Assembly: GCA_964623495.1 (NCBI GenBank)
Contig: CAZUTV010000001.1
Location: forward strand, 44,682-108,681
Direction of reading: 5' to 3'
DNA: 64,000 bases
Origin: Candidatus Woesearchaeota archaeon
Lineage (GTDB): Archaea > Nanobdellota > Nanobdellia > Pacearchaeales > GW2011-AR1
Position 1 is the stretch's first letter. Each line of letters starts with the position of its first letter. The notes under the pieces were generated by a model. It did not search any database, had not been told where the DNA came from, and saw only the letters and a program-made list of their open reading frames with translations. Made by a program: the position numbers and the translations under genes. Of the stretch, positions 34,839-62,391 are shown piece after piece.

Positions 34839-35228
34839 TTATTCAGAACCAGTAAATCTTGTTCTTTTTTCCAGAAGTTCAACTCTTTGAGTAATGTGAT
34901 AAACCTGATTGCTTAAATCTTCAATTCTATCAGTAAGATCCATAAGCCTCTTTGCAAGTCTTTTCCTTCTCTCTTCAATGCTTGCATTAGGATCATCATA
35001 ATCGCTTGAGCTTGAAGAACCTGATGCAGAAGCCAAATTTCCTAAAAAAGCAAAATCACTTCCAGATTGCTGGGAGGAAGCTGTTGGTTGTAATGCTTTC
35101 CCTTTAGTCTTATTGAATTTCTGCTCGTCATTATAGCTGCTAGCAAGATCCAGCACCTTCTCTTTTTTTCCAAATCCAAGAAAACTCATGAAAAATAAAA
35201 GATAAACTGATTTATAAGTATTTCTCAA
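34839..35228 (-). CDS. hypothetical protein with Ser-rich region and C-terminal coiled coil
   Basis: ORF. Confidence 0.35.
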   Translation of the reverse strand: MRNTYKSVYLLFFMSFLGFGKKEKVLDLASSYNDEQKFNKTKGKALQPTASSQQSGSDFAFLGNLASASGSSSSSDYDDPNASIEERRKRLAKRLMDLTDRIEDLSNQVYHITQRVELLEKRTRFTGSE

Positions 35229-35232
35229 TTAT

Positions 35233-37026
35233 TTAATCTCCAAGGTAACCGCCTTTCTGCAGATTCCAGAGTTTTCTGTACTCTCCAGGCCTTCTAATTA
35301 AATCAAGATGCTTTCCTTCTTGGATTATCTTACCTTCTTTCATAACAATTATCCTGTCTGCATTCATAATGGTTGAAAGCCTATGCGCAATTATTATTGA
35401 AGTTCTTCCTTTAAGCAATTCGCTAAGCGCTTCTTGTATTTTATGCTCGGTTTCTGAGTCTAATGAAGAAGTTGCCTCATCAAGAACAAGAATTTTTTTA
35501 TTTGCTAAAATTGCCCTTGCTATAGAAACTCTCTGTTTTTCTCCTCCAGACAGCTTTACTCCTCTTTCTCCAACAATAGTATTCTCTTTGTAAGGAAATG
35601 CTTTCACAATATCATAAAGCCTGGCAAGTTTTATTGCATTCATGACCTCGCTTCTTGAAGCGTCTGGCTTTGCGAATTTTATGTTATTATAGATTGTATC
35701 ATCAAACAAAAGACATTCCTGGGGAACAATCCCTGTTTCTCCCCTTACCGATTCCTGCTTGAAATCTCTTAAATCTCTCCCATCTATAAGTATCTGCCCG
35801 GAATCAACATCATAAAATCTGTTTAGCAGTTTAACAATTGTTGTTTTCCCAGATCCGGAATGCCCCACAAGGGCAATTTTTTCGTTTTCCTTTATTTTTA
35901 AATTAAAATTCTTCAGCAATTTTCTGTGTCCGTAGCTGAAAGAAACGTCTCTAAATTCAATGACTCCTTTCTGAATATCTATGTTCTTTGCTCCGGGTTT
36001 GTCTTTTATCTCGTTCTCTTTCTTCCCGTATTCAAATAAATCTTGGAAATCGGCCATGGATCTATAAAATCCCCTAATTCCCCCAACAAAGCCAAACATT
36101 GCCCCGACAATCTGGGAATAAACAGTGTAAACAAAAACAAGAGTTCCAAGACTCAATTCTCCGGCCAAAAACTCTTTTATTGGGAAGTAAATTAAGAAAA
36201 ATGTTCCAAGGGTAAGTATAAATGACTGGCCTGCATCAAACCACCTAAAATAACCCCAGTATTTCCATGCAGTGTTTTTTGATTTTAGGGCTTTTTTTTC
36301 ATACTGCGCCTTTACAAGCTGCTCTTTTCCAAGATATTTTACAGAATCTATATTCATAAAAACATCGCTTATCATGCCTTTTTCTCTGTCTTCTGCTTTA
36401 ATAAAATCAAGCTTTGATTTCTGCTGCAATTCTAGTATGTAATAACTATAAATTGTGAATACAATCGTTGTTAAGAGAATTACAATTGCAGGAACGATGC
36501 TGAAATAAGCAAGAGAAAACATCACAACAACTATATTGATAAATAAAGGAATAAAGTTAAACGTGAGGATATCTGTCATATTCTCTACTGCCCCAGCTCC
36601 TCTAATCATCCTAGAAACCATTGACCCGGTTCTGTGTGTTGTATGGAAGTTATGATCCAAATCAACAATATGGTTAAAATACTTCCTCTTTATATCTAAA
36701 ATAATCTTTATATCTAATTTTGCTAGGAAATAGTGTGTAAACCACTTAGAAATAATTCTTACAGCTCTGGCAGTTAGATAAATTATCACTATGACCATCA
36801 GGGTTTTTACAAAAATATCTGCCAGTAAGCTCCCCTCGATGAATCTGGCCCCGTCGTCTATTATTCTCTTGAATAGGAATTTTTCAACAACAGGAAGAGT
36901 CTCTGCAACAAGAGAAACAAACAAAAGCAAAAAGAACAAACCCTTGTACTTGCCCAAGACCTTCCAGTATTCTCTAAGATTATACCTAAAATCTATTTTT
37001 TCTCCGTGTCTTCCTTTCATCTTCAT
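35233..37026 (-). CDS. ABC transporter, fused permease/ATPase (exporter type)
   Basis: 6-TM domain, Walker A GHSGSGKTT, LSGGEKQR signature, Walker B ILVLDEATS. Confidence 0.85.
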   Translation of the reverse strand: MKMKGRHGEKIDFRYNLREYWKVLGKYKGLFFLLLFVSLVAETLPVVEKFLFKRIIDDGARFIEGSLLADIFVKTLMVIVIIYLTARAVRIISKWFTHYFLAKLDIKIILDIKRKYFNHIVDLDHNFHTTHRTGSMVSRMIRGAGAVENMTDILTFNFIPLFINIVVVMFSLAYFSIVPAIVILLTTIVFTIYSYYILELQQKSKLDFIKAEDREKGMISDVFMNIDSVKYLGKEQLVKAQYEKKALKSKNTAWKYWGYFRWFDAGQSFILTLGTFFLIYFPIKEFLAGELSLGTLVFVYTVYSQIVGAMFGFVGGIRGFYRSMADFQDLFEYGKKENEIKDKPGAKNIDIQKGVIEFRDVSFSYGHRKLLKNFNLKIKENEKIALVGHSGSGKTTIVKLLNRFYDVDSGQILIDGRDLRDFKQESVRGETGIVPQECLLFDDTIYNNIKFAKPDASRSEVMNAIKLARLYDIVKAFPYKENTIVGERGVKLSGGEKQRVSIARAILANKKILVLDEATSSLDSETEHKIQEALSELLKGRTSIIIAHRLSTIMNADRIIVMKEGKIIQEGKHLDLIRRPGEYRKLWNLQKGGYLGD

Positions 37027-37405: not shown

Positions 37406-38818
37406 ATGGTTGAAATAAAGAGTGTGGCAGACATAATAAAAGAAATCTCCCCATACTATAAGGAAAAGGGCGGACCAGAAGCAGAACATAAGCTTGTTTA
37501 TGACTCAAGCTCTGAAACTCTCGAGCCAGTTTACTTTTATATCATTGACTTAATGAATGATCTAGGGTTTAAAATTGAAAAACTAGTTGATAACTTTTCT
37601 TCTTCTGTGGGTTCTGGCCATTTTTCAGAACTTGGCCAAAGAGCAACAATTATGCAGCAGCAAGGAGCAAAAATTCTTGGTGATGTCAATACGGTTCTAA
37701 GATCTGTATTAAATATTGTATACGATTTAAAGGAATTCAGAATAAGACTTCAAACCTACGACGACTTGAAATCAAAAGATAAAAAGAAATCAGAAGGTGC
37801 AAAATACTCGCTAAAACAAATCTGGATGGATAAGGTTGATATTAACAAGGGAAATTCAAGCATAAAGGCAATGGCTCTCGGGCAGGCAGGATTTCAAACT
37901 CTAATAGACGCATTTCTAATTGTTAATGACGAAAAACTTAAGGGGCCTGATGGAAAAGAACTTGATCTGAATGACAGAGTTAAAAGAATAGTCCAGCAGA
38001 GAATTTCAGAATACAATATCTGGATTAAACAATCAGAGATGGAATTAAGAAAAAGATTTGAATTAGAGAAAACCTACCTTAAAAGCCAGGTCAATGCCCT
38101 AAAACTTTACACAAGATGGGCCAAACCCTACTTAAAAGCCGCTTCTCAGCTAGAAACAAAAGACTTTGGGAGAGATCCTGCACTAGTCAAGGTTTTCAAC
38201 ACCCTTCTCCTTGAACTAACACTTCTTGGAGCCAGGGAAATAAAAGTCAAAGAATCTGCCCTTGAAGGGGATCTTCCAAGAGAATTCACTAGAGAAGGAT
38301 TCATAAAGTCCTTGAAGAGAAAATACCATGTGTGTGTTTTGGTTGATTTTGTTTTTAGGGGGATTCCGCAAAGAGCAGGCCAGCAATTCCATTATGTTTT
38401 TGGAGGAAAAGTGGATGTTATTTTTAGAGGTTATGTTTTAAACGATGATGAGATAAATAAGATTAAGGAAGTTTTGGACAAATCAGACCTCTCAACAGCC
38501 CTATCTTTAGTTGAAGGGACCACAGAAGAAAGTCTTTCCCAAATTGAAGAAGAAATAAACTTTTATTTGGAAGAAAGAGATGAAAGTAAAGAAGAGAAGA
38601 GCGATGAGTCAAATCCTTTTCTGGCATTGTTTGGATTCTATAATAAGTCAGATTCAAAGTCTTCTGGAAAGAAAGAAAAGAAAGAGATAATCGTAGCCAA
38701 AGACAGCTGGGTTGAAAAAGCCCATCTCAGAAGGCTTGGGTCTGAAAAAGCAGTAGAAGACGCTTTTAAGGTCTTTGAAACCTACAAAAAGTCCCATGAT
38801 ATGCCTGCGTACACTTAA
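37406..38818 (+). CDS. hypothetical 470-aa largely alpha-helical protein
   Basis: ORF; track start 37370 is GTG inside the structured leader; no recognisable motifs. Confidence 0.5.
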   Translation: MVEIKSVADIIKEISPYYKEKGGPEAEHKLVYDSSSETLEPVYFYIIDLMNDLGFKIEKLVDNFSSSVGSGHFSELGQRATIMQQQGAKILGDVNTVLRSVLNIVYDLKEFRIRLQTYDDLKSKDKKKSEGAKYSLKQIWMDKVDINKGNSSIKAMALGQAGFQTLIDAFLIVNDEKLKGPDGKELDLNDRVKRIVQQRISEYNIWIKQSEMELRKRFELEKTYLKSQVNALKLYTRWAKPYLKAASQLETKDFGRDPALVKVFNTLLLELTLLGAREIKVKESALEGDLPREFTREGFIKSLKRKYHVCVLVDFVFRGIPQRAGQQFHYVFGGKVDVIFRGYVLNDDEINKIKEVLDKSDLSTALSLVEGTTEESLSQIEEEINFYLEERDESKEEKSDESNPFLALFGFYNKSDSKSSGKKEKKEIIVAKDSWVEKAHLRRLGSEKAVEDAFKVFETYKKSHDMPAYT

Positions 38819-38846
38819 TAATAAGCTTTAAAAAGCCAGGTAGTAA

Positions 38847-39263
38847 ATGATTTCTATGGCAACAGAAGCATTAGTGGTTAAACTTTCAGCTCCGTTTAGC
38901 AGACACAGGGGAAACTGCCAGTGTCCAAATTTAATGCCCCTCTGGGAGCAAATGGCTGAAACAGACAGAGCAGAAGCAGAGGCCAGAAGATATGCAGAGC
39001 AGTTTGCAGAGAACCCAGAGAAATACAAAAGAGATGTTATTTTTCAAGATGCGCTTATAAGGAGAAGGAGAAGTTTTGAATTGGCGCTTGAACTATACAG
39101 GGATGTTTTTGCACAAGCCGCAAGATCAAAAGGAATAATTTTTGAATCTGGTGGAAGAGTTGTTGAACCAGACATCATCCAAGAAGGCCAGCAATATACT
39201 ATGAACTGCAGCACTTGCAGAACAGAAATTCCTTTTGTGGAATACGAAGGCTGGAACCAGTAA
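38847..39263 (+). CDS. hypothetical protein with CxC...CxxC
   Basis: ORF; GNCQCP and NCSTCRTE. Confidence 0.4.
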   Translation: MISMATEALVVKLSAPFSRHRGNCQCPNLMPLWEQMAETDRAEAEARRYAEQFAENPEKYKRDVIFQDALIRRRRSFELALELYRDVFAQAARSKGIIFESGGRVVEPDIIQEGQQYTMNCSTCRTEIPFVEYEGWNQ

Positions 39264-39293
39264 TCTTATAAATTCTGATTAATTCTTTGATTT

Positions 39294-39734
39294 ATGTCTA
39301 TGTACAAAAAAAGAGACATTGATGAGAGGTTAAGAAATCTTGGTGCAACTCCCTTATACAAGGAAGGATGGGATTATGCAGTTACCTATAAGGGCGTGAG
39401 AATTCCAGGGATTAAGGTGACTCATCCGGGCAATGAAATTCCTGACGGTGCTGTAAGCAAGCTTGCAAGAGAAATTGCAGACATAGGAAATCTAAATTCA
39501 AATGATGTTAAAAAGGTCTTGAGGGGGATGCGCCCTTCACTTGACACCGGATTAAATTCGGGGATTTTAACCGCTTCATTTGTCTTGATAATGCTTATAA
39601 TTTCAAGAACAAAAATTCTTACGGGCAATGTAATCGGAAATATTCCTTCTTCTGCCTTAAATGGTTTAATAATCTTAGTTGTCTTTATTATTCTTGGATT
39701 GCTCTTATTAAAATTCAGAAGAGATAACTCTTAA
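39294..39734 (+). CDS. hypothetical protein with two C-terminal TM helices
   Basis: ORF plus hydrophobicity. Confidence 0.4.
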   Translation: MSMYKKRDIDERLRNLGATPLYKEGWDYAVTYKGVRIPGIKVTHPGNEIPDGAVSKLAREIADIGNLNSNDVKKVLRGMRPSLDTGLNSGILTASFVLIMLIISRTKILTGNVIGNIPSSALNGLIILVVFIILGLLLLKFRRDNS

Positions 39735-39768
39735 CAAATTTTATATATCTCTTGTTCTTTAGCTTTAT

Positions 39769-40365
39769 ATGGAAAAAACCAGCAAGCCAGCCAAAAAATC
39801 AAGCAAAATTCAAAAAACTCTTGGAAAAGTCAAGTTCAAGGAAATAATCATTCCTCTTGAGAAATCTGAAAAAAAGGAATTAGAACCTCCCAGGAAGGAT
39901 TCTGGCTTGGAGGAAGAAATTATTGAAGCAGAGGAAATAATAGATTCCCGGCAATTTCAGAAATTTTTAACAGCGTCCGGCTCCCCAACCTTAGAAAGTA
40001 TAGGAGGATCCCAGCAGCAAAGAGTAAGATTTGTTAGAAGCGAAAGGTCCGAAAGAGATCTAGATAACGATTCCTTAAAATACGATCAGGGCGGAAAAGA
40101 TTATTTTTCTCCAAATCAGGCAGATCCTGGATCTGGAAAAAGAGATTACTCTATGATAAGCGAAGCTCAGCCTTTAAGAGGAAATGATAATACTAGCAGA
40201 TTTTTGCTAAAGCCTGAAGCGCCAATGTCAGATAGGATAGAAAATCAGGCGCCATATCCTGAGATGGGAAGGCCAATAATGAATCCGGAATTTGCGCAAA
40301 ATAGAACAAAGCTCCCTTTTGAAATGGCCAAGGAAGATAAAAAATATAAAGAAGCTAGATTTTAG
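39769..40365 (+). CDS. hypothetical low-complexity / disordered protein
   Basis: ORF; Lys-rich N-terminus; Pro/Glu/Arg-rich C-terminus. Confidence 0.4.
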   Translation: MEKTSKPAKKSSKIQKTLGKVKFKEIIIPLEKSEKKELEPPRKDSGLEEEIIEAEEIIDSRQFQKFLTASGSPTLESIGGSQQQRVRFVRSERSERDLDNDSLKYDQGGKDYFSPNQADPGSGKRDYSMISEAQPLRGNDNTSRFLLKPEAPMSDRIENQAPYPEMGRPIMNPEFAQNRTKLPFEMAKEDKKYKEARF

Positions 40366-40399
40366 ATAGGTTAATAAATAAAAAATCCGTATTTTGTTT

Positions 40400-42160
40400 A
40401 TGGGAAAAGGGGAATACACAATTAAAAATTTTTATTCTGGAGGATACTCTAGTTTTAGCCCTAGTTATGGAAGTTCTTTTACAGGATATAGGACATCAGC
40501 ACAACATTTGGGTATGGCCACTGATGCAAGAACGGCAAATGTTTTAAAAGAAGTTTCTGAAAATTTATCTGCTGGAGCTAAAACCGTTGAATTAAACCAA
40601 GTTTTTCCGGAAGTTTTTGAATCAATCCCAAAAGATCAATTAAAAGAAGTAAATAGGCTTGCAAAACTAACCGGAGTAGATGTCACACTTCATGCGCCTT
40701 TAGTTGAACCTTCTGGTATGACAAAAGACGGGTTTACAGAAGCAGGAAGAGAATCTGCTGAAAGACAAATGAATCTTGCAATAGAAAGGGGGCACGAAAT
40801 AAATCCTAAAGGAAATGTTAATATAACCTTCCACTCTTCGGTTCTTCTCCCAGGACAGATAAAACCAAAAGGAAGAGAAGTTCCAGAAACATTTGTTATA
40901 AATTCGGAATCGGGCTCGGTACAAAAACTGCCCTTGAAAGAAAGAAAGTTTCCTGGAGAAGCACAGCAGCCAAACATCAAAGAAGAGGTGACTAAGATCA
41001 ATGAAGAGGTTTGGAAGCAGCAACTGACCCATCTGGCCTACAATATAGAAAGAGCAAGTGAACTTATAAGGTCTTCGGGATATCTGGCCCTAACAGCCGA
41101 AGCCGAAGAAAAAGCCGGAGAAAAATTATATCCCCAGGAAAAACAGGCAAAAAACGCCTTTAATGTTGGAACAGCTTTTCTGCAAGATTCTTATAGAGAG
41201 CTTAAAGCCCTTTACGATTTAGCATATAAAAACGCAACCGAAGAAGAAAAAAATATGCTGTTGGATTTAGGAAATAAAATTAAGGAAAGGGTGGAAGTAA
41301 TAAAAAAAGAGCCGGATAGCCGTAAAAGCATAATGTTAAGACAGGAAATTGTTGAAGATGGTCTTGCCACCCTAACCAAGATCTCCATTCCAGAGATATA
41401 CAAATCCCTAAATGATTTTGCCAAAGAAAAAACAACAGAAACATTTGCAAACGCAGCCCTTAATTCATATAAAAAATTCAAAGAAAGCACCCCCATAATA
41501 AGTATTGAAAATCCCCCTGCAGGAGGAGCATTCAGCACAGCAGAGGAATTAAAAGAAATTATAGAAAAATCTAGAGAAAAGTTTGTCAAAAAAGCTGTCG
41601 AGTCAGGAATTTCTGAATCAACTGCAAAAGAGCAGGCTGAAAAAATAATCGGAGCTACATGGGATGTCGGCCACATAAACATGCTTAGGAAATACGGCTA
41701 TGAAGGTAAAGACATTGTAAAAGAATCCGAGAAGATAGCACCCTTCTTAAAACACGTCCATCTTTCTGACAACTTTGGCTTAGAGCACACAGAATTGCCT
41801 ATGGGAATGGGAAATGTACCAATAAAAGAAATAATGGAGAAATTTGACGAAGAGGGCTTCAAAGGAAAAAAAATAATCGAAGCGATGCACTGGTGGCAGC
41901 ATTTTTCTCCTGGCGGAAAAACAAATCCTCCGTTGCAGGTAACTTTAGAGGCTTTTGGGTCTCCAATTTATTCTTCTGAATCCGGGCCTTACTGGAATCA
42001 ATCCCCTGGTCTAATACAAAATTATTATAGTGGTTATGGCCAGTTTCTTCCTGATGTTAACTACCAAACCTTTGGTGCAGGATTCTCACAGCTGCCTGCA
42101 GAACTCGGAGGACAAAGGCCAGGCCAAGGTAGTAGAATGAGCGGAAGAGGAATGGAATAA
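40400..42160 (+). CDS. xylose-isomerase-like TIM-barrel (sugar-phosphate isomerase/AP-endonuclease-2 family) split by a long coiled-coil insert, with Gly/Tyr/Ser-rich termini
   Basis: N-half TVELNQVF...VDVTLHAP; C-half KHVHLSDNFGLEHTELPMGMGNVPIKEI...GKKIIEAMH is the family metal-site motif; about 250-aa helical insert between halves; track start 40394 is TTG. Confidence 0.5.
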   Translation: MGKGEYTIKNFYSGGYSSFSPSYGSSFTGYRTSAQHLGMATDARTANVLKEVSENLSAGAKTVELNQVFPEVFESIPKDQLKEVNRLAKLTGVDVTLHAPLVEPSGMTKDGFTEAGRESAERQMNLAIERGHEINPKGNVNITFHSSVLLPGQIKPKGREVPETFVINSESGSVQKLPLKERKFPGEAQQPNIKEEVTKINEEVWKQQLTHLAYNIERASELIRSSGYLALTAEAEEKAGEKLYPQEKQAKNAFNVGTAFLQDSYRELKALYDLAYKNATEEEKNMLLDLGNKIKERVEVIKKEPDSRKSIMLRQEIVEDGLATLTKISIPEIYKSLNDFAKEKTTETFANAALNSYKKFKESTPIISIENPPAGGAFSTAEELKEIIEKSREKFVKKAVESGISESTAKEQAEKIIGATWDVGHINMLRKYGYEGKDIVKESEKIAPFLKHVHLSDNFGLEHTELPMGMGNVPIKEIMEKFDEEGFKGKKIIEAMHWWQHFSPGGKTNPPLQVTLEAFGSPIYSSESGPYWNQSPGLIQNYYSGYGQFLPDVNYQTFGAGFSQLPAELGGQRPGQGSRMSGRGME

Positions 42161-42206
42161 CAAACAAATTTAAAAACTATATACTCCAACCTATATAATA
42201 AAAAAG

Positions 42207-43196
42207 ATGGTTAAGAAAAAAAGAGGGAAAAAATCAAAGACGATACGAAAGCTTCCTAATTTAGATGATTTAAGCAAGAAAACAGAAAAGGAAAAGACAG
42301 TTGAAAGCCAAGAAAAAAAACCCATTTCTTCAAAAACCTTCAAAAAACCAAAGATTCATCTAAAACAGGAAAAGCCTAAGAAAAATTTAAATCCAAAAAA
42401 CTTTCCAAGTCTGCAGCTTAAGTCAGAGCATGATATTGCAATGGATTTTGCAGTTAAGGTCTATAAGAGATTTGACAAAATTATCAAGTCTGTTGTTCTT
42501 TTTGGCTCGACAGTAAAGCAGTCTGCTGTTGCAGGTTCAGACATTGACATTATAATAATCATAGATGATGTTGCAATAAAATGGGATCAGGAGCTTATTG
42601 CCTGGTACAGGGAAGAGCTCGAGAAAATTTTGCAAGTCAACCCTTATAAGTATGCATTGCACATAAACACAGTCAAGTTAAGCACCTGGTGGGAAGATGT
42701 AAGCAGAGGGGATCCTGTAGTTATAAATGTCTTAAGGCATGGTGAACCGATGCTGGATTATGCAGGATTCTTTGAGCCTTTAAAATATCTTTTGCTACAG
42801 GGAAAAATCCGACCTTCACCGGAAACAATTTACATATCTCTTCAAAGAGCCCCAACCCATTTAGCAAGAAGCAAAGCATCTGTATTGAGTGCAGTAGAAG
42901 GATTGTATTGGGCAATGGTTGATTCAGCTCATGCCGCCTTGATTGCAGCAAATATCCTTCCTCCTTCTCCAGAGCATCTTGCAATTGATTTAAGGGAGCA
43001 GTTTGTAAATGAAGGAAAATTAAACATGAAATATGTTGTCTGGTACAGAGACTTGCTAATGCTCCACAAAAAAATCAATCACGGAGAAATAAGGGACGTT
43101 AAAGGCTCTGATATTGACGCCTGGTATGACAGAACAAAAGAATTCATTGACGTCATGGCAAATTTAGTTAAAAATATTGTTGATAAGCAAGATTAA
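42207..43196 (+). CDS. Pol-beta-superfamily nucleotidyltransferase with C-terminal helical domain and Lys-rich N-terminal extension
   Basis: VLFGSTVKQSAVAGSDIDIIIIIDD (GS...DxD); paralogous to 47163-48968 (shared RPSPE region). Confidence 0.6.
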   Translation: MVKKKRGKKSKTIRKLPNLDDLSKKTEKEKTVESQEKKPISSKTFKKPKIHLKQEKPKKNLNPKNFPSLQLKSEHDIAMDFAVKVYKRFDKIIKSVVLFGSTVKQSAVAGSDIDIIIIIDDVAIKWDQELIAWYREELEKILQVNPYKYALHINTVKLSTWWEDVSRGDPVVINVLRHGEPMLDYAGFFEPLKYLLLQGKIRPSPETIYISLQRAPTHLARSKASVLSAVEGLYWAMVDSAHAALIAANILPPSPEHLAIDLREQFVNEGKLNMKYVVWYRDLLMLHKKINHGEIRDVKGSDIDAWYDRTKEFIDVMANLVKNIVDKQD

Positions 43197-43212: not shown

Positions 43213-43497
43213 TTATGCCCCGGGGTTGGGCCCATCAGCAGAATAAACTCTACTTGGGAGATCAAAATTTGGTTTTCTTTGGGGGATAAAGACGTATTTT
43301 TCTGGGAGTATTCTTTGATAATTTAATCCATCGTCTCTGTTAACCGAAGTCTGTGTTGGGGTTCTCCAATCTCTTGATATAATCTCCCTATCATAATTAT
43401 TTTGTAAATCACTCACTCCACTCACAACAGAAAGCATAATTAATCCAGACACAAGGTTTTTTCTCATCTTAAAATCCATTTCCTTTTCTGTAATCAA
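43213..43497 (-). CDS. small secreted protein
   Basis: Signal-like N-terminus (internal start MRKNLVSGLIMLSV). Confidence 0.35.
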   Translation of the reverse strand: MITEKEMDFKMRKNLVSGLIMLSVVSGVSDLQNNYDREIISRDWRTPTQTSVNRDDGLNYQRILPEKYVFIPQRKPNFDLPSRVYSADGPNPGA

Positions 43498-43717
43498 ATT
43501 CTCTGATTATATTGAAATTATGTAGGAAAACAAGCCAGACAAAAGCCCATAGAAACAAGTCAAATCTAAGGTTGAAATCCATTCCAATTATTCCATTAAT
43601 TAAGATATAGACTATAAAGAAAAGAGCAACTGCTAATCCAAAATAGTTTACCCATATTGGTCTTTCTCTCATGATTAAATTTTGTTTTGTCATTTTAATT
43701 TCTCCTCGTTGCAGCAT
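43469..43717 (-). CDS. small 2-TM membrane protein
   Basis: ORF plus hydrophobicity. Confidence 0.35.
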   Translation of the reverse strand: MLQRGEIKMTKQNLIMRERPIWVNYFGLAVALFFIVYILINGIIGMDFNLRFDLFLWAFVWLVFLHNFNIIREFDYRKGNGF

Positions 43718-43883
43718 ACAAAGCAGCTAATCCAACAGCAGCAATCCCCCCGTAAACAACTTCTGGCTGTTTGAGGTTATATCTATCATTCCTTCCTTCG
43801 CTTAAGCCATTTGCTAGTGAAAGAACTGCCACTGAAGCAGCAGCTATTGCTCCTATTCTAAAAATGTTTGCTATTGTTTTCAT
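43695..43883 (-). CDS. small 2-TM membrane protein
   Basis: ORF plus hydrophobicity. Confidence 0.35.
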   Translation of the reverse strand: MKTIANIFRIGAIAAASVAVLSLANGLSEGRNDRYNLKQPEVVYGGIAAVGLAALYAATRRN

Positions 43884-43940: not shown

Positions 43941-44519
43941 TTAAAGTTTAGATGCTAAGTTCTTAAGCTCTTGCATTCTTGTGGTATCAACTGCATCAGG
44001 TCTTAAAGATTCATAGCTGTATCTGTCAAGTGTCTGCATTACATCCATAACATCCTTGTATCTGGCTATGGTTTCCTTAGCTTCAGCAATTTGGTCATTG
44101 CTGAACAAGCCCTTTGGAGCTTTCTTGTCAGTCATGTACTTTGCTTTGGCATATTTCTCTCTTATAGACTTGATAGTTTCATCATGTCTATTCAATGCGC
44201 CAACAATCTTGTCTCTGTCTCCAGATTCAAGACCTCCTAAAGCAGAGCCATACCAATCAACTAACTCAGAAGGTTTATATTCTCCTCTCTTCTCTTCGAA
44301 TTTAGATGCATAAACTGCTATTGCAGTAGTTACACCATCTTCAGAAGCCTGAGTACCCCTGATAAAACCTTCAGCATCTTCTCCTAAGTTAAGGCCTTTT
44401 GCACCTGCAAGTACTTCTAAAGCACCCGGAGCATATCTTCCGCCATCTTCAGTTGAAGCTAAATAAGCGGCAGCTGCACCATACTGGTATCTTTTAAAGT
44501 CTGTTCTTTGGTCAGGCAT
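43941..44519 (-). CDS. hypothetical soluble protein
   Basis: ORF with a strong promoter-like motif upstream and T-rich terminator downstream. Confidence 0.45.
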   Translation of the reverse strand: MPDQRTDFKRYQYGAAAAYLASTEDGGRYAPGALEVLAGAKGLNLGEDAEGFIRGTQASEDGVTTAIAVYASKFEEKRGEYKPSELVDWYGSALGGLESGDRDKIVGALNRHDETIKSIREKYAKAKYMTDKKAPKGLFSNDQIAEAKETIARYKDVMDVMQTLDRYSYESLRPDAVDTTRMQELKNLASKL

Positions 44520-45282: not shown

Positions 45283-45558
45283 TTAACACTCTCCCACCAT
45301 TACAGCTGTTCGAATAGCTTGTTTAAACGCCCCTAATGGTGCTACCTGGATATAAGCAATATTTTCCCCTACAGAACCCTCAACAAAAGATGCCAATTCT
45401 CTTCCCTTGACTTCTGCAAATCTTGAAAGAGATGCAATTTGGTGTCTAATAAAAACATCGTATAATCTATCAGAATCTAAAAATTCAGATGCTCTGCTTA
45501 GCATAAAATTTCCCCATTGGCAAATCGAATTATAAGCAAATATCTTTCTATCTATCAT
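45283..45558 (-). CDS. hypothetical protein in ribosomal-protein operon
   Basis: ORF between rpl35ae and rpl10e. Confidence 0.35.
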   Translation of the reverse strand: MIDRKIFAYNSICQWGNFMLSRASEFLDSDRLYDVFIRHQIASLSRFAEVKGRELASFVEGSVGENIAYIQVAPLGAFKQAIRTAVMVGEC

Positions 45559-47162: not shown

Positions 47163-48968
47163 TTACAAAACAATTTCAAATTCTCCAAACTCTTTTTTTA
47201 TAAGGTCAAATAGTTTAGGATTAACTGCAAGATCTTTCCTTGTCTTTTGGTGCTCCATGGCCTCAGAAACTTCTTTCATATTTGAGGTTTCTATCTTGTC
47301 TGTTATTTTTTTAATTTCATTACCAATAAACAAAAAGCAGTTTCCTCCGGAAATCAAGAGTTCGGCAGTCCTGTCCTTAAAGATTATCTTCATCCTTCCC
47401 TTTTCAACACCCAATAGATCCTTTCTCTGAGAGAAATCAATAAGATCGTTCATAAGGATTGCAGATCCTTTTCTTACATCATCTGCTTTCTGCAGGCTTA
47501 GCTTCGCTTTCTTTGACTCTGTCTTGGCAGCAACTATCTCTTTAAGAATTCTTAGGTGTTGCTGCGTAAACTTGCCTTTCTTAACAAGCTTATTTTCAAA
47601 CTCATGCACAATATCCTGCTGTGAATTCTTTCCAGTAACTATCTTCAAAAGCTCAAAAACATCCTTATACACTTGATCTATGGTTTTTTCCTGCGCCTGC
47701 TTTTCAATCTGATCTCTTAACTCCTTAAGTCTTTTAAGATAATCCTCTGTATCTTTAAGCAGCTTATCAATTTCTTTTCCAGAAACTTCCTTTATCTTCT
47801 CGTGTTCATATCCCTTATAATACTTAATTGTAATCTCTTCAAGAATGTCAATGTATTTTTTTTCAAGCATCTTTTCCTTGTCAACAAAAACCCTCTTCAT
47901 TTCCTTAAAAGTTTCTTTTGTTGTTGGGGGAGGCATCCCATACAGCATTAACAAAGCCTGGCTTGGGGTTATAACACTCCAGTAAATATCCAATAACAGA
48001 ATATCCATTAAAGCCTTCTTAGCTCTCTTAATTGTGTTGTCTCCTGCAGACATGAACATGTCAATAGCTTCTGGAGAAGGTTTAAGCTTCCCCATTTTTA
48101 ATAATGCTTTCCATGGCATAAAGGTAGCTCGATCATAAAGAGGAACTCCGTCTCTTATAAATGTAAAAATAACCGGATGGGCATCCTTGACACTCTCCCA
48201 AAAGTCAGTCAAAAGATAAACTTGGATGTTAAGCATGTTGTTTTTGACTCCTGCAAGAGCAGCAGCCTCTGTCACATACTGGCCGACAATCATGCTCCTA
48301 AGCCTTTCCTTTAATTCAAGTCTTGGCATTCTCTTAACATCAGTATCATTAATGACAACAAAAACATCAACATCAGAGCTTTTTACAGTATCTCCTCTTA
48401 CAAAGCTTCCTGCAATAACGTAGCTTACAACATACTTGTCAAATTTCCTTAAAACAAGGGATTTGTGTATTTCAGCAACTCTTAAGCCTTGAAGTATTCC
48501 GGTATCATGAATTGGAAGAGACATTGCAATGGCGCCGATAAGCTCGAATTTGCTGTCAAAACAGATCTCCCATAAATCCACAGGAGTCTTAATCTGAAGC
48601 CAGATCTTTTGCTTAAGCTTTTCCTGCGTCAATTCAACTTGTTTAATGATTTCCTGCTTTATCTTTGGAATATTCTTAAATTGTTCTTCAGGAACCACCA
48701 TATACAAATGCAGGTATTTTTCAGTTTCCTTAGGAACTTCTTCCTCCTCAATAAAAAACTTAATTGCCTGGTTGTGAAGAATGCTTATGGATTGTGTGAA
48801 AGGATATTTTTTAACAATAAATCCTTTCAACTTATCCAGCTCTTTTCTTGTTTTCTCCATCTCTTTCTGCAGTTTTTCCTGATCGGGAGGCAATATATTT
48901 TTAGAACTATATTTATTATCCAGATTCATTTCAGGAATGTCTTGAGGAGAGTTATCATTCGAGGACAT
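47163..48968 (-). CDS. Pol-beta-superfamily nucleotidyltransferase with N- and C-terminal coiled-coil extensions (paralogue of 42207-43196)
   Basis: VIAGSFVRGDTVKSSDVDVFVVINDTD; shared downstream region PWKALLKMGKLKPSPEAI. Confidence 0.6.
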   Translation of the reverse strand: MSSNDNSPQDIPEMNLDNKYSSKNILPPDQEKLQKEMEKTRKELDKLKGFIVKKYPFTQSISILHNQAIKFFIEEEEVPKETEKYLHLYMVVPEEQFKNIPKIKQEIIKQVELTQEKLKQKIWLQIKTPVDLWEICFDSKFELIGAIAMSLPIHDTGILQGLRVAEIHKSLVLRKFDKYVVSYVIAGSFVRGDTVKSSDVDVFVVINDTDVKRMPRLELKERLRSMIVGQYVTEAAALAGVKNNMLNIQVYLLTDFWESVKDAHPVIFTFIRDGVPLYDRATFMPWKALLKMGKLKPSPEAIDMFMSAGDNTIKRAKKALMDILLLDIYWSVITPSQALLMLYGMPPPTTKETFKEMKRVFVDKEKMLEKKYIDILEEITIKYYKGYEHEKIKEVSGKEIDKLLKDTEDYLKRLKELRDQIEKQAQEKTIDQVYKDVFELLKIVTGKNSQQDIVHEFENKLVKKGKFTQQHLRILKEIVAAKTESKKAKLSLQKADDVRKGSAILMNDLIDFSQRKDLLGVEKGRMKIIFKDRTAELLISGGNCFLFIGNEIKKITDKIETSNMKEVSEAMEHQKTRKDLAVNPKLFDLIKKEFGEFEIVL

Positions 48969-62264: not shown

Positions 62265-62391
62265 TGCGCGGACCGGGAATCGGACCCGGGTCACCTCGTC
62301 TTTGCATTTTTGCTTCTTTGAGCGCCGAACTTTCTTTCTAAAGAAAGTTGGGCATTGGCAACGAGATATTCTACCATTAAACCATCCGCGC
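62265..62391 (-). tRNA. tRNA-Gly (GCC) with about 54-nt intron in the anticodon loop
   Basis: Perfect acceptor GCGCGGA/TCCGCGC and T-arm CCGGG-TCCGATT-CCCGG; anticodon stem TCTCG...CGAGG interrupted after TTGCCA by an insert with an internal hairpin. Confidence 0.7.

What the first reader, a model, noticed from the sequence alone, without database searches (positions are those of the whole stretch)
37406..43196. Co-directional six-gene cluster of uncharacterised proteins
Six consecutive plus-strand genes have short intergenic gaps. They are a 470-aa helical protein, a Cys-pair protein, a 2-TM protein, a disordered Lys/Pro-rich protein, a split TIM barrel with low-complexity tails and a Lys-tailed nucleotidyltransferase. 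Only the last two give any family match, and both are atypical. The cluster is preceded by an unusually structured GC-rich leader and followed by three tiny overlapping membrane/secreted genes on the opposite strand. No capsid, terminase, integrase or toxin signatures are present. This looks like a lineage-specific, plausibly co-regulated system, possibly cell envelope or host interaction, or a nucleotide-signalling module built around the nucleotidyltransferase.
Basis: partly seen in the sequence, partly recalled or inferred. Interest (0 to 1): 0.7.

Follow-up and report, generated by a model that had tools for sequence, protein, structure and literature searches.

The report
Conserved unknown gene module of Nanoarchaeia
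Four of the six genes (plus one upstream) form a module of unknown function kept throughout a whole class of tiny symbiotic archaea, built around a protein with no known relatives or fold that is as conserved as ribosomal proteins; the other two genes are strain-specific insertions.

The parts
34839..35189 (-). up129. Small protein with an N-terminal basic/hydrophobic motif (MSFLGFGKKEK) and a C-terminal coiled coil. It is the conserved divergent partner of g1. In this genome an ABC-exporter gene separates it from g1.
   Evidence: A homologue lies divergently upstream of g1 in 64 of 76 Pace-type loci. The same architecture is seen upstream of g1 in Woese-type loci L165, L166, L093, L097, L106 and L128. 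It has no Pfam family above cut-off.
37406..38818 (+). g1. A 470-aa cytoplasmic protein of unknown family and fold. It is the anchor of the module.
38847..39263 (+). g2. A 4-Cys orphan gene inserted between g1 and g4. It is not part of the conserved module.
   Evidence: It is found only in the window's own contig among 164 loci.
39294..39734 (+). g3. A two-TM protein that occurs sporadically as an insertion after g1. It is not part of the conserved module.
   Evidence: Homologues occur in only 4 other loci, three of them directly after g1. TM windows lie at residues 85-145.
39769..40365 (+). g4. An intrinsically disordered protein with short conserved motifs (F-x-E-F, aPVLE, KY, C-terminal PFE..KKYK). 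It always lies immediately upstream of g5.
   Evidence: A family of 56-61 members, one per locus, lies just upstream of g5. It sits between g1 and g5 in 48 of 60 loci. The median g4-to-g5 spacing is 65 nt. Positional analogues of 165-208 aa, most ending in a KKYK-like motif, occur in Woese-type loci.
40400..42160 (+). g5. A metal-dependent xylose-isomerase/EndoIV-superfamily TIM barrel. It has a four-helix insertion of about 135 residues (193-325) and conserved extended N- and C-terminal tails.
42207..43196 (+). g6. A KNTase-like pol-beta nucleotidyltransferase followed by a helical domain. The Lys-rich N-terminal tail (net +17 over 70 aa) is variable in length and absent from Woese-type orthologues.
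   Evidence: PF01909 and PF18765 hits. The GS...DxD...DD motif is conserved. PDB profile hits are weak, to an MNT-like NTase and to kanamycin NTase. It lies within 9 kb of g1 in 45 of 46 Pace-type loci and 7 of 21 Woese-type loci.
43213..43883 (-). Three tiny overlapping ORFs (m1-m3), two of them with TM-like segments. They are strain-specific and not part of the conserved module.
   Evidence: They are found only in the window's own contig.
47163..48968 (-). NT601. A 601-aa paralogue of g6 in the same conserved neighbourhood.
   Evidence: The g6 jackhmmer profile hits NT601 orthologues at 323-351 bits in the sampled rows. PF01909 hit. It is 56-73% identical across loci.

Best explanation
SHOWN. 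The six-gene run is a composite. Its core is an ancient, vertically inherited module of the archaeal class that contains Pacearchaeota and Woesearchaeota. The module is up129 (divergent), g1, g4, g5 and usually g6. In this genome two strain-specific genes (g2, g3) interrupt it between g1 and g4, and an ABC exporter lies between up129 and g1. All conserved members are cytoplasmic. g1 is a novel-fold protein, and the residues invariant across the whole family are aromatic, Pro, Gly or Leu plus one Asp. That pattern suggests a scaffold rather than an enzyme. g4 is a disordered protein carrying short linear motifs. g5 is a TIM-barrel metalloenzyme whose unstructured tails are nearly invariant. g6 is a pol-beta-type nucleotidyltransferase.

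INFERRED (mechanism). The proteins form one cytoplasmic assembly. The conserved tails of g5 and the motifs of g4 dock onto the g1 scaffold. The enzymes act on nucleic-acid ends or lesions: g5 as an EndoIV-like phosphodiesterase and g6 as a 3'-end nucleotidyltransferase. The link to DNA or RNA rests on five points. First, bacterial g1 relatives sit beside SSB, a DnaG-type primase (in one locus), a HerA/FtsK-type ATPase and winged-helix proteins in integrative elements. Second, the g5 barrel belongs to the superfamily that holds EndoIV and UvdE, and it keeps metal-ligand-competent residues at all nine EndoIV ligand positions by motif comparison. Third, its only sequence relative in the PDB, MJ1311, has been listed as the predicted EndoIV homologue of M. 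jannaschii. Fourth, g6 and g4 carry basic tails. Fifth, a conserved NPFxALF motif lies in a disordered g1 linker in both archaeal and bacterial members and resembles clamp-binding motifs.

My confidence that a conserved functional module exists is about 0.85. My confidence in the nucleic-acid mechanism is about 0.3. The score given below is for the whole statement.
For: Module. g5 lies within 5 kb downstream on the same strand in 60 of 63 Pace-type loci. A g4 homologue lies between them in 48 of those 60, g6 is nearby in 45 of 46, and up129 is divergent upstream in 64 of 76. In Woese-type loci g5 is adjacent in 24 of 33, and 13 of those have no L10e within 10 kb, so the adjacency outlives the backbone synteny. 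The g4-to-g5 spacing has a median of 65 nt.

Conservation. g1 is 56-68% identical, g6 60-74%, L10e 57-73% and GluRS 52-76%.

Bacterial context of g1 relatives. The order is integrase, small wHTH-like protein, DUF87/HerA ATPase, coiled-coil protein, then divergently a tandem wHTH protein, the g1-like gene and SSB, followed by primase and RadC in L167.

g6. The catalytic GS/DxD motif is conserved.
Confidence: 0.35

Rival explanations
1. Membrane-associated scaffold or cytoskeleton-like assembly. up129 tethers the assembly to the membrane through its N-terminal basic/hydrophobic motif and coiled coil. g1, with its long helices, polymerises. g4 and the g5 tails attach the enzyme as a cargo or regulator. 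The role would be in cell shape, division or organising contact with the host.
For: up129 has a conserved N-terminal MG(L/F)F(G/S)FFKKK-type motif plus a coiled coil, and it is the most persistent neighbour of g1. It is kept in L165, where g5 is not adjacent. g1 has a 62-residue helix and a helical hairpin, a conserved disordered linker and a terminal helix, an architecture loosely like ESCRT-III/PspA-type polymers. Conservation as high as a ribosomal protein fits a protein with many interaction surfaces. A marginal profile hit to the pore-forming CAMP factor covers the helical hairpin (E=0.0085).
Confidence: 0.2
2. Ordinary metabolism. g5 is a sugar or sugar-phosphate isomerase/epimerase, for example in nucleotide or pentose salvage. 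g1 and g4 are lineage-specific accessory or regulatory subunits. g6 is merely a syntenic neighbour.
Against: Metabolic epimerases do not normally carry a 135-residue helical insertion and about 100 residues of invariant extended tails, nor a dedicated disordered partner gene. The adjacency to a 470-aa scaffold-like protein is unexplained. No other pathway genes are nearby.
Confidence: 0.2
3. No system at all. The genes are unrelated core genes that stay adjacent only because the whole chromosomal region is a slowly rearranging backbone (GluRS ... L10e, L35Ae, methyltransferase).
For: The entire region of about 15 kb is syntenic across Pace-type genomes, including genes with plainly unrelated functions. 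Unrelated genes, some on the opposite strand, are often inserted between g1 and g4 and between g5 and g6.
Against: In Woese-type loci the backbone markers are mostly gone, yet g5 remains next to g1 in 24 of 33 loci. g4 is always glued to g5. Insertions occur at the junctions but never remove the members.
Confidence: 0.12
4. One reading: a nucleotide-signalling or defence module built around the nucleotidyltransferase g6.
For: g6 gives weak hits to MntA, HalB and PADLOC candidate NTase models.
Against: All of those hits are below family cut-offs and cover only the generic NTase core. There is no HEPN, effector or sensor partner. The module sits in the conserved core genome beside ribosomal genes, is present in essentially every related species, and is 60-74% identical. 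That is the opposite of the patchy, fast-evolving pattern of defence systems. There are no CD-NTase or SMODS hits.
Confidence: 0.03

Closest known systems
MJ1311 of Methanocaldococcus jannaschii (PDB 3WQO) and the D-tagatose 3-epimerase-like / xylose-isomerase-like TIM-barrel family (PF01261)
   Different: g5 is twice as long. It has a four-helix insertion (residues 193-325) between barrel strands and conserved non-globular tails of about 33 and 65 residues that MJ1311 lacks. It also has a dedicated disordered partner gene (g4) and an adjacent g1. The function of MJ1311 itself is unsettled: its PDB title calls it epimerase-like, while PMC2770678 lists it as a predicted EndoIV homologue.
Endonuclease IV (Nfo) family of AP endonucleases
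   Different: No sequence-level hit to EndoIV models or PDB chains. Pace-type g5 swaps D229/H231 for H/E. No DNA-binding loops were assessed. Activity is untested.
Kanamycin nucleotidyltransferase / MNT-type minimal pol-beta nucleotidyltransferases (PF01909)
   Same: g6 has the NTase core with the GS...DxD...D motif followed by a helical domain, as in KNTase.
   Different: It scores far below the cut-offs for MntA, ANT(9) and HalB. It has no HEPN partner. It is a highly conserved core gene with a 520-600 aa paralogue (NT601) nearby, and it carries a variable Lys-rich tail.
Module 98 of Castelle et al. 2021 (51 protein families shared by Pacearchaeota and Woesearchaeota, mostly of unknown function)
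   Same: It has the same taxonomic distribution as g1, g4, the g5-type and g6, and it lacks annotation in the same way.
   Different: I could not check that these families are in module 98, because the supplementary table was not read. The paper describes no gene cluster, structure or function for them, and no bacterial relatives.
Uncharacterised bacterial integrative-element module (integrase, small wHTH-like protein, DUF87/HerA-like ATPase, coiled-coil protein, then divergently a tandem wHTH protein, the g1-like gene and SSB)
   Same: It contains full-length g1 homologues (25-35% identity, E down to about 1e-45). They share the motifs LE..YF, SPGSG.F, W.KPYL, FNT..(F/L)E, RG.PE, NPF.ALF and the C-terminal helix.
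   Different: There is no g4, g5, g6 or up129 there. The context is mobile (integrase, IetAS defence neighbours) rather than core-chromosomal. The module matches no PADLOC system apart from generic HerA/mad8 hits.

Membership tests
Xylose isomerase-like TIM barrel (Pfam PF01261, AP_endonuc_2): g5 | Profile match above the curated gathering score | tested here: met
   57.9 bits against a cut-off of 31.1, matched in two stretches because of the insertion. The same domain is found in Woese-type orthologues.
Xylose isomerase-like TIM barrel (Pfam PF01261, AP_endonuc_2): g5 | (beta/alpha)8 barrel fold | tested here: met
Xylose isomerase-like TIM barrel (Pfam PF01261, AP_endonuc_2): g5 | Conserved carboxylate/His metal ligands at the C-terminal ends of the barrel strands | tested here: met
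   E370, D422, H425, H454 and E494 are invariant in 121 sequences and lie at predicted strand ends.
Endonuclease IV (Nfo): g5 | Nine ligands of the trinuclear Zn site (H69, H109, E145, D179, H182, H216, D229, H231, E261 in E. coli) | tested here: inconclusive
   By-eye motif mapping gives H98, H145, E370, D422, H425, H454, H463, E465 and E494. Seven are the same residue type and two are swapped (D to H, H to E). Woese-type g5 keeps D..H. The Nfo sequence was recalled from memory, and hhalign gave no usable alignment.
Endonuclease IV (Nfo): g5 | Sequence-profile membership | tested here: not met
   No EndoIV model in NCBIfam. No EndoIV chain in PDB profile searches at E<=10.
Endonuclease IV (Nfo): g5 | AP-endonuclease / 3'-diesterase activity | not testable with these tools
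   This needs an enzyme assay.
Ketose 3-epimerase (D-tagatose/D-allulose 3-epimerase): g5 | Closest structural neighbours and a single Mn/Co site (Glu, Asp, His, Glu) | tested here: inconclusive
Pol-beta superfamily nucleotidyltransferase (PF01909): g6 | Profile match above cut-off, plus the hG[GS] and DxD motifs and a third acidic residue | tested here: met
   33.7 bits against a cut-off of 21. G100 is invariant, and S101, D112 and D114 are >=90% conserved. D120 and D121 are invariant. One Woese-type paralogue lacks the DxD motif.
MNT-HEPN (MntA/HepT) toxin-antitoxin: g6 | Score at or above the NCBIfam cut-off, and an adjacent HEPN toxin gene | tested here: not met
   23.9 bits against a cut-off of 60. 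No HEPN gene is adjacent in the window or in the loci.
CBASS / CD-NTase-type nucleotide signalling: g6 | CD-NTase/SMODS domain and an effector gene | tested here: not met
   There are no such hits in Pfam, NCBIfam or PADLOC. Only generic candidate NTase models hit (PDC-S09, PDC-M05A).
Any described protein family or fold: g1 | Profile or structural match | tested here: not met
ESCRT-III / PspA / Vipp1 polymers: g1 | Helical-hairpin core fold detectable by structure comparison | tested here: not met
Operon (single co-regulated transcription unit): the six genes | Co-directional genes with short gaps | tested here: met
   Gaps are 28-46 nt.
Operon (single co-regulated transcription unit): the six genes | Adjacency conserved across genomes | tested here: inconclusive
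   g4-g5 are always tight (median 65 nt). g1-g4 are within 200 nt in 36 of 60 loci and g5-g6 within 300 nt in 29 of 58. Opposite-strand insertions occur in some loci, and g2 and g3 are not conserved.
Operon (single co-regulated transcription unit): the six genes | One transcript | not testable with these tools
   TATA-like boxes lie 20-35 nt upstream of g4, g5 and g6, so internal promoters are possible. This needs transcriptomics.

The most novel reading that the evidence does not exclude
g1, g4, g5 and up129 (with g6 as an associate) constitute a previously undescribed cytoplasmic machine that is universal and near-essential in Pace- and Woesearchaeota. It would be built on a protein fold with no known relative, held together by conserved disordered tails and linear motifs. 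It would share ancestry with the core protein of an uncharacterised family of bacterial integrative elements that also carry a HerA-type ATPase and SSB. In other words, it would be either a new kind of DNA-handling apparatus exchanged between mobile elements and DPANN chromosomes, or a new cytoskeleton- or compartment-like scaffold.
Probability: 0.25. Interest if true: 0.8.

Novelty: categorically new. Interest (0 to 1): 0.6.

Why it matters
Pace- and Woesearchaeota are among the most abundant uncultured archaea in groundwater and sediments. Their genomes are tiny, so a 470-aa protein kept at ribosomal-protein levels of identity in at least 528 species genomes, together with a fixed set of partners, is very likely central to how these cells work. 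Yet it has no annotation, no family and no recognisable fold. Defining the real unit (up129, g1, g4, g5, g6) and separating it from the strain-specific insertions turns a vague "hypothetical cluster" into a small set of proteins that can be co-expressed and assayed. The g1 relatives in bacterial integrative elements give an independent functional context, DNA transactions, and raise the question of exchange between mobile elements and DPANN core genomes. If the function proves mundane, such as a scaffolded sugar isomerase, the value shrinks to better annotation of about 2000 protein clusters.

Tried and rejected
(1) Structured RNA leader. Fold z-scores of -0.9 and -1.07 and no Rfam hit. Rejected.

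(2) Provirus or mobile element in the window. There are no PHROGs hits and no relatives of archaeal g1 in IMG/VR. The BFVD fold search gave noise, and the region is core-syntenic. Rejected for the archaeal locus.

(3) Defence system. PADLOC gives only generic NTase hits. Rejected.

(5) CAMP-factor similarity. It is marginal, covers 60 residues, and is not reproduced by Pfam on 22 members. I kept it only as a lead.

(6) hhalign of the g5 barrel profile against E. coli Nfo. Uninformative, because the template was a single sequence.

(7) Barrel-only g5 profile against the PDB. It added nothing beyond MJ1311.

(8) AlphaFold DB Foldseek. The library was unavailable.

(9) Genome and viral scans with the most divergent alignments failed for lack of conserved stretches.

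(10) Bacterial g1-like protein against PLSDB plasmids and INPHARED phages. No match.

(11) Homology between the archaeal partners (up129, d192, g4, g5, g6) and the bacterial partner genes. None found.

(12) Literature. Castelle 2021 notes unannotated families shared by Woese- and Pacearchaeota. Neither that paper nor the other two checked describes this cluster.
Full report
**What is in the sequence.** The window is from an AT-rich archaeon (about 35% GC). It carries an intron-containing tRNA. The best protein hits are to MAGs labelled Nanoarchaeota, Pacearchaeota or Woesearchaeota.

The six plus-strand ORFs are present:
- g1, 37406-38818, 470 aa, with GGAGG 6 nt upstream
- g2, 38847-39263, 138 aa
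- g3, 39294-39734, 146 aa
- g4, 39769-40365, 198 aa
- g5, 40400-42160, 586 aa (588 aa from an upstream TTG)
- g6, 42207-43196, 329 aa

The gaps between them are 28-46 nt. Only g5 (PF01261, split hit) and g6 (PF01909/PF18765) match Pfam or NCBIfam. PHROGs finds nothing, and PADLOC gives only weak generic NTase hits for g6.

The 'structured GC-rich leader' is not supported. GC rises only to 40-47%. Fold energies are within one standard deviation of shuffles (z -0.9 and -1.07). No Rfam family matches.

**The six genes are not one unit.** I fetched the window's own contig, three close relatives, 80 species-representative genome loci (from at least 528 matches) and 80 metagenome loci for a distant subfamily.

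In the Pacearchaeota-type set the gene order is almost invariant. It runs GluRS(-), up129(-), then g1(+), a variable stretch, g4(+), g5(+), a variable stretch, g6(+), and finally d192(-), L10e(-), L35Ae(-), methyltransferase(-) and NT601(-). The counts are:
- g5 lies within 5 kb downstream of g1 on the same strand in 60 of 63 loci.
- A g4 homologue lies between g1 and g5 in 48 of those 60.
- g6 lies within 9 kb in 45 of 46.
- up129 lies divergently upstream in 64 of 76.

g4 first looked unique by tblastn. In fact it belongs to a fast-evolving family of 56-61 members, one per locus, always immediately upstream of g5 with a median spacing of 65 nt. By contrast, g2 occurs only in the window's own contig. 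g3 occurs in four other loci. The three tiny minus-strand genes after g6 occur only in the own contig. The junctions g1|g4 and g5|g6 are insertion hot spots. In other genomes they hold an ABC exporter, minus-strand genes or other small ORFs.

**Is the adjacency more than inherited backbone?** The whole 15-kb region is syntenic, so adjacency alone proves little. The test is the distant subfamily. NCBI names place it in Woesearchaeota, and its g1 is 27-35% identical to the window's.

There the GluRS and up129 profiles mostly find nothing, and L10e appears in only a few loci. Yet a g5 homologue is still within 5 kb downstream on the same strand in 24 of 33 loci with enough sequence. Thirteen of those have no L10e within 10 kb.

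Between g1 and g5 these loci often carry a charged 165-208 aa ORF, in most cases ending in a KKYK-like motif, as g4 does. g6 is nearby in only 7 of 21. A small divergent gene with the up129 architecture recurs in several Woese-type loci, including L165, where g5 is not adjacent. That architecture is an N-terminal MG(L/F)F(G/S)FFKKK-type motif, a disordered middle and a C-terminal coiled coil.

I conclude that g1-(g4)-g5 is a selectively maintained pair or triplet. up129 is a persistent partner of g1. g6 is a looser associate.

**The proteins.**

*g1.* It has more than 2400 homologues in the word-indexed search, the best 120 at 60-71% identity. The exhaustive search finds 563 clusters at 50% identity. 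Across species it is 56-68% identical, the same range as L10e (57-73%) and GluRS (52-76%) in the same loci.

No member matches any Pfam, NCBIfam, PHROG or PADLOC family. The AF2 model has pLDDT 76 and pTM 0.65. It shows:
- a small N-terminal alpha/beta unit;
- a highly conserved but unmodelled loop (residues 65-85, DNFSSSPGSGHFAELGQR);
- a helical hairpin and a 62-residue helix;
- a three-stranded sheet;
- a disordered Lys/Glu linker containing an invariant NPFxAL motif;
- a terminal helix.

They are nevertheless nearly invariant, down to the C-terminal ...GSRMSGxPME. Woese-type proteins keep an aromatic-rich tail ending in VP(L/M)E. Conserved but unfolded tails are what one expects of segments that order on a partner.

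H98, H145, E370, D422, H425, H454, D457, E465 and E494 are invariant. By eye they map onto the nine EndoIV zinc ligands, with two residue-type swaps in Pace-type proteins. This mapping used an Nfo sequence recalled from memory and is not validated. MJ1311 is itself ambiguous. Its PDB title says epimerase-like, while Kiyonari et al. list it as the predicted EndoIV homologue of M. jannaschii.

*g6.* It is a KNTase/MNT-like pol-beta NTase with the catalytic motif conserved and a helical C-terminal domain. Its Lys-rich tail is variable and is absent from Woese-type orthologues. NT601 (47163-48968, minus strand) is a longer paralogue.

None of the conserved members has a TM segment.

**An unexpected relative.** About 19 of the 150 best representative clusters of the g1 family are bacterial in composition. 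In five independent contigs these proteins lie in integrative elements with a recurring layout. The element carries an integrase. On one strand lie a small wHTH-like protein, a DUF87/HerA-like ATPase and a coiled-coil protein of about 150 aa. Divergent from them come a tandem-wHTH protein of about 192-220 aa, the g1-like protein and a small ORF. SSB follows in three of the contigs, with a DnaG-type primase and RadC as well in one of them.

An IetAS defence pair lies next door in two of them. No g4, g5, g6 or up129 homologue is present there. These proteins are absent from sequenced plasmids and phages. The motifs shared with archaeal g1 include the NPFxALF linker motif.

**Mechanism.** What is shown is a conserved, cytoplasmic, multi-gene module built around a non-enzymatic protein of novel fold. 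Its partners are a disordered protein and a metalloenzyme with conserved docking-type tails.

What I infer, with confidence of about 0.3, is an assembly that processes nucleic-acid ends or lesions. The grounds are the bacterial context of g1 (SSB, primase, HerA, wHTH), the EndoIV-superfamily barrel with a possibly multinuclear metal site, the neighbouring 3'-end-type nucleotidyltransferase, the basic tails, and a clamp-binding-like motif.

The main rivals are as follows:
- A membrane-tethered scaffold, based on the up129 N-terminal motif and the long helices of g1.
- Mere backbone synteny.

**Novelty.** Castelle et al. 2021 reported a set of 51 mostly unannotated protein families shared by Pace- and Woesearchaeota. 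g1, g4, g5 and g6 plausibly belong to it. No cluster, structure, partner set or bacterial relatives were described in the papers I could search. Two components belong to known superfamilies as unusual variants. g1, g4, up129 and the module as a whole match no known kind of system. I therefore rate it categorically new, with the caveat that its function is unresolved. Interest is moderate to high.

Noticed in passing
L167 1-21503; L169 340-6233; L170; L171/L172 2816-7180; unnamed JGI contig: The g1 family has a bacterial branch inside integrative elements with a recurring layout. The element carries an integrase. On one strand lie a small wHTH-like protein, a DUF87/HerA-like ATPase and a coiled-coil protein of about 150 aa. 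Divergent from them come a tandem-wHTH protein, the g1-like gene and a small ORF, followed by SSB in L167, L171 and L172, plus primase and RadC in L167. The module matches no PADLOC system beyond generic HerA/mad8 hits, and it lies next to IetAS in L169 and L170.
   Followed up: partly
window 47163-48968 (-): NT601, a 601-aa protein with a pol-beta NTase core, is a paralogue of g6. The g6 profile hits its orthologues at 323-351 bits in the sampled rows. It is 56-73% identical across species and belongs to the same conserved neighbourhood. It is not the CCA-adding enzyme, because Woese-type contigs carry a separate tRNA_NucTransf2 gene.
   Followed up: partly
window 35233-37026 (-): An MsbA-type ABC exporter lies between up129 and g1 here. 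Its orthologues (55-75% identity) occupy different junctions of the same module in other genomes: upstream of g1, between g1 and g4, or between g5 and g6. This is either a loose association with the module or repeated use of the same insertion hot spots.
   Followed up: partly
window 43941-44519 (-): d192 is a 192-aa protein with no family match. It is conserved at this position, between g6 and L10e, in 23 Pace-type loci.
   Followed up: no
window 45283-45558 (-): A 91-aa ORF lies between the L10e and L35Ae genes. It is found only in the window's own contig.
   Followed up: no
window 62265-62391 (-): Rfam finds a 127-nt tRNA match (48.8 bits) that ARAGORN did not call. It probably carries an archaeal intron.
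   Followed up: no
g1 residues 400-412 (window about 38603-38641) and the equivalent positions in bacterial relatives: An invariant (D/S)NPFxAL(F/I)G motif lies in an otherwise disordered Lys/Glu-rich linker. It is conserved from archaeal to bacterial members and loosely resembles PIP-box or beta-clamp-binding motifs.
   Followed up: no
window 39741-39748, 40371-40385, 42177-42200: TATA-box-like AT-rich elements lie 20-35 nt upstream of the g4, g5 and g6 start codons. They could be internal promoters for leaderless transcripts. In a genome of 35% GC they may also be chance.
   Followed up: no
L056 (DATJPO010000017.1) and L067 (JAHYJW010000002.1): Two contigs with the full archaeal synteny (GluRS, up129, g1 ...) are deposited in bins labelled Omnitrophota and Patescibacteria. 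This is probably mis-binning.
   Followed up: no
L002 1-5232: In a related Pacearchaeota genome, an integrase plus about a dozen small ORFs, apparently an integrated element, lies about 5 kb upstream of the module.
   Followed up: no
L157 13030-13833 and 17198-17995: One Woese-type locus has two g6 paralogues flanking g5. One of them has lost the DxD catalytic motif.
   Followed up: no
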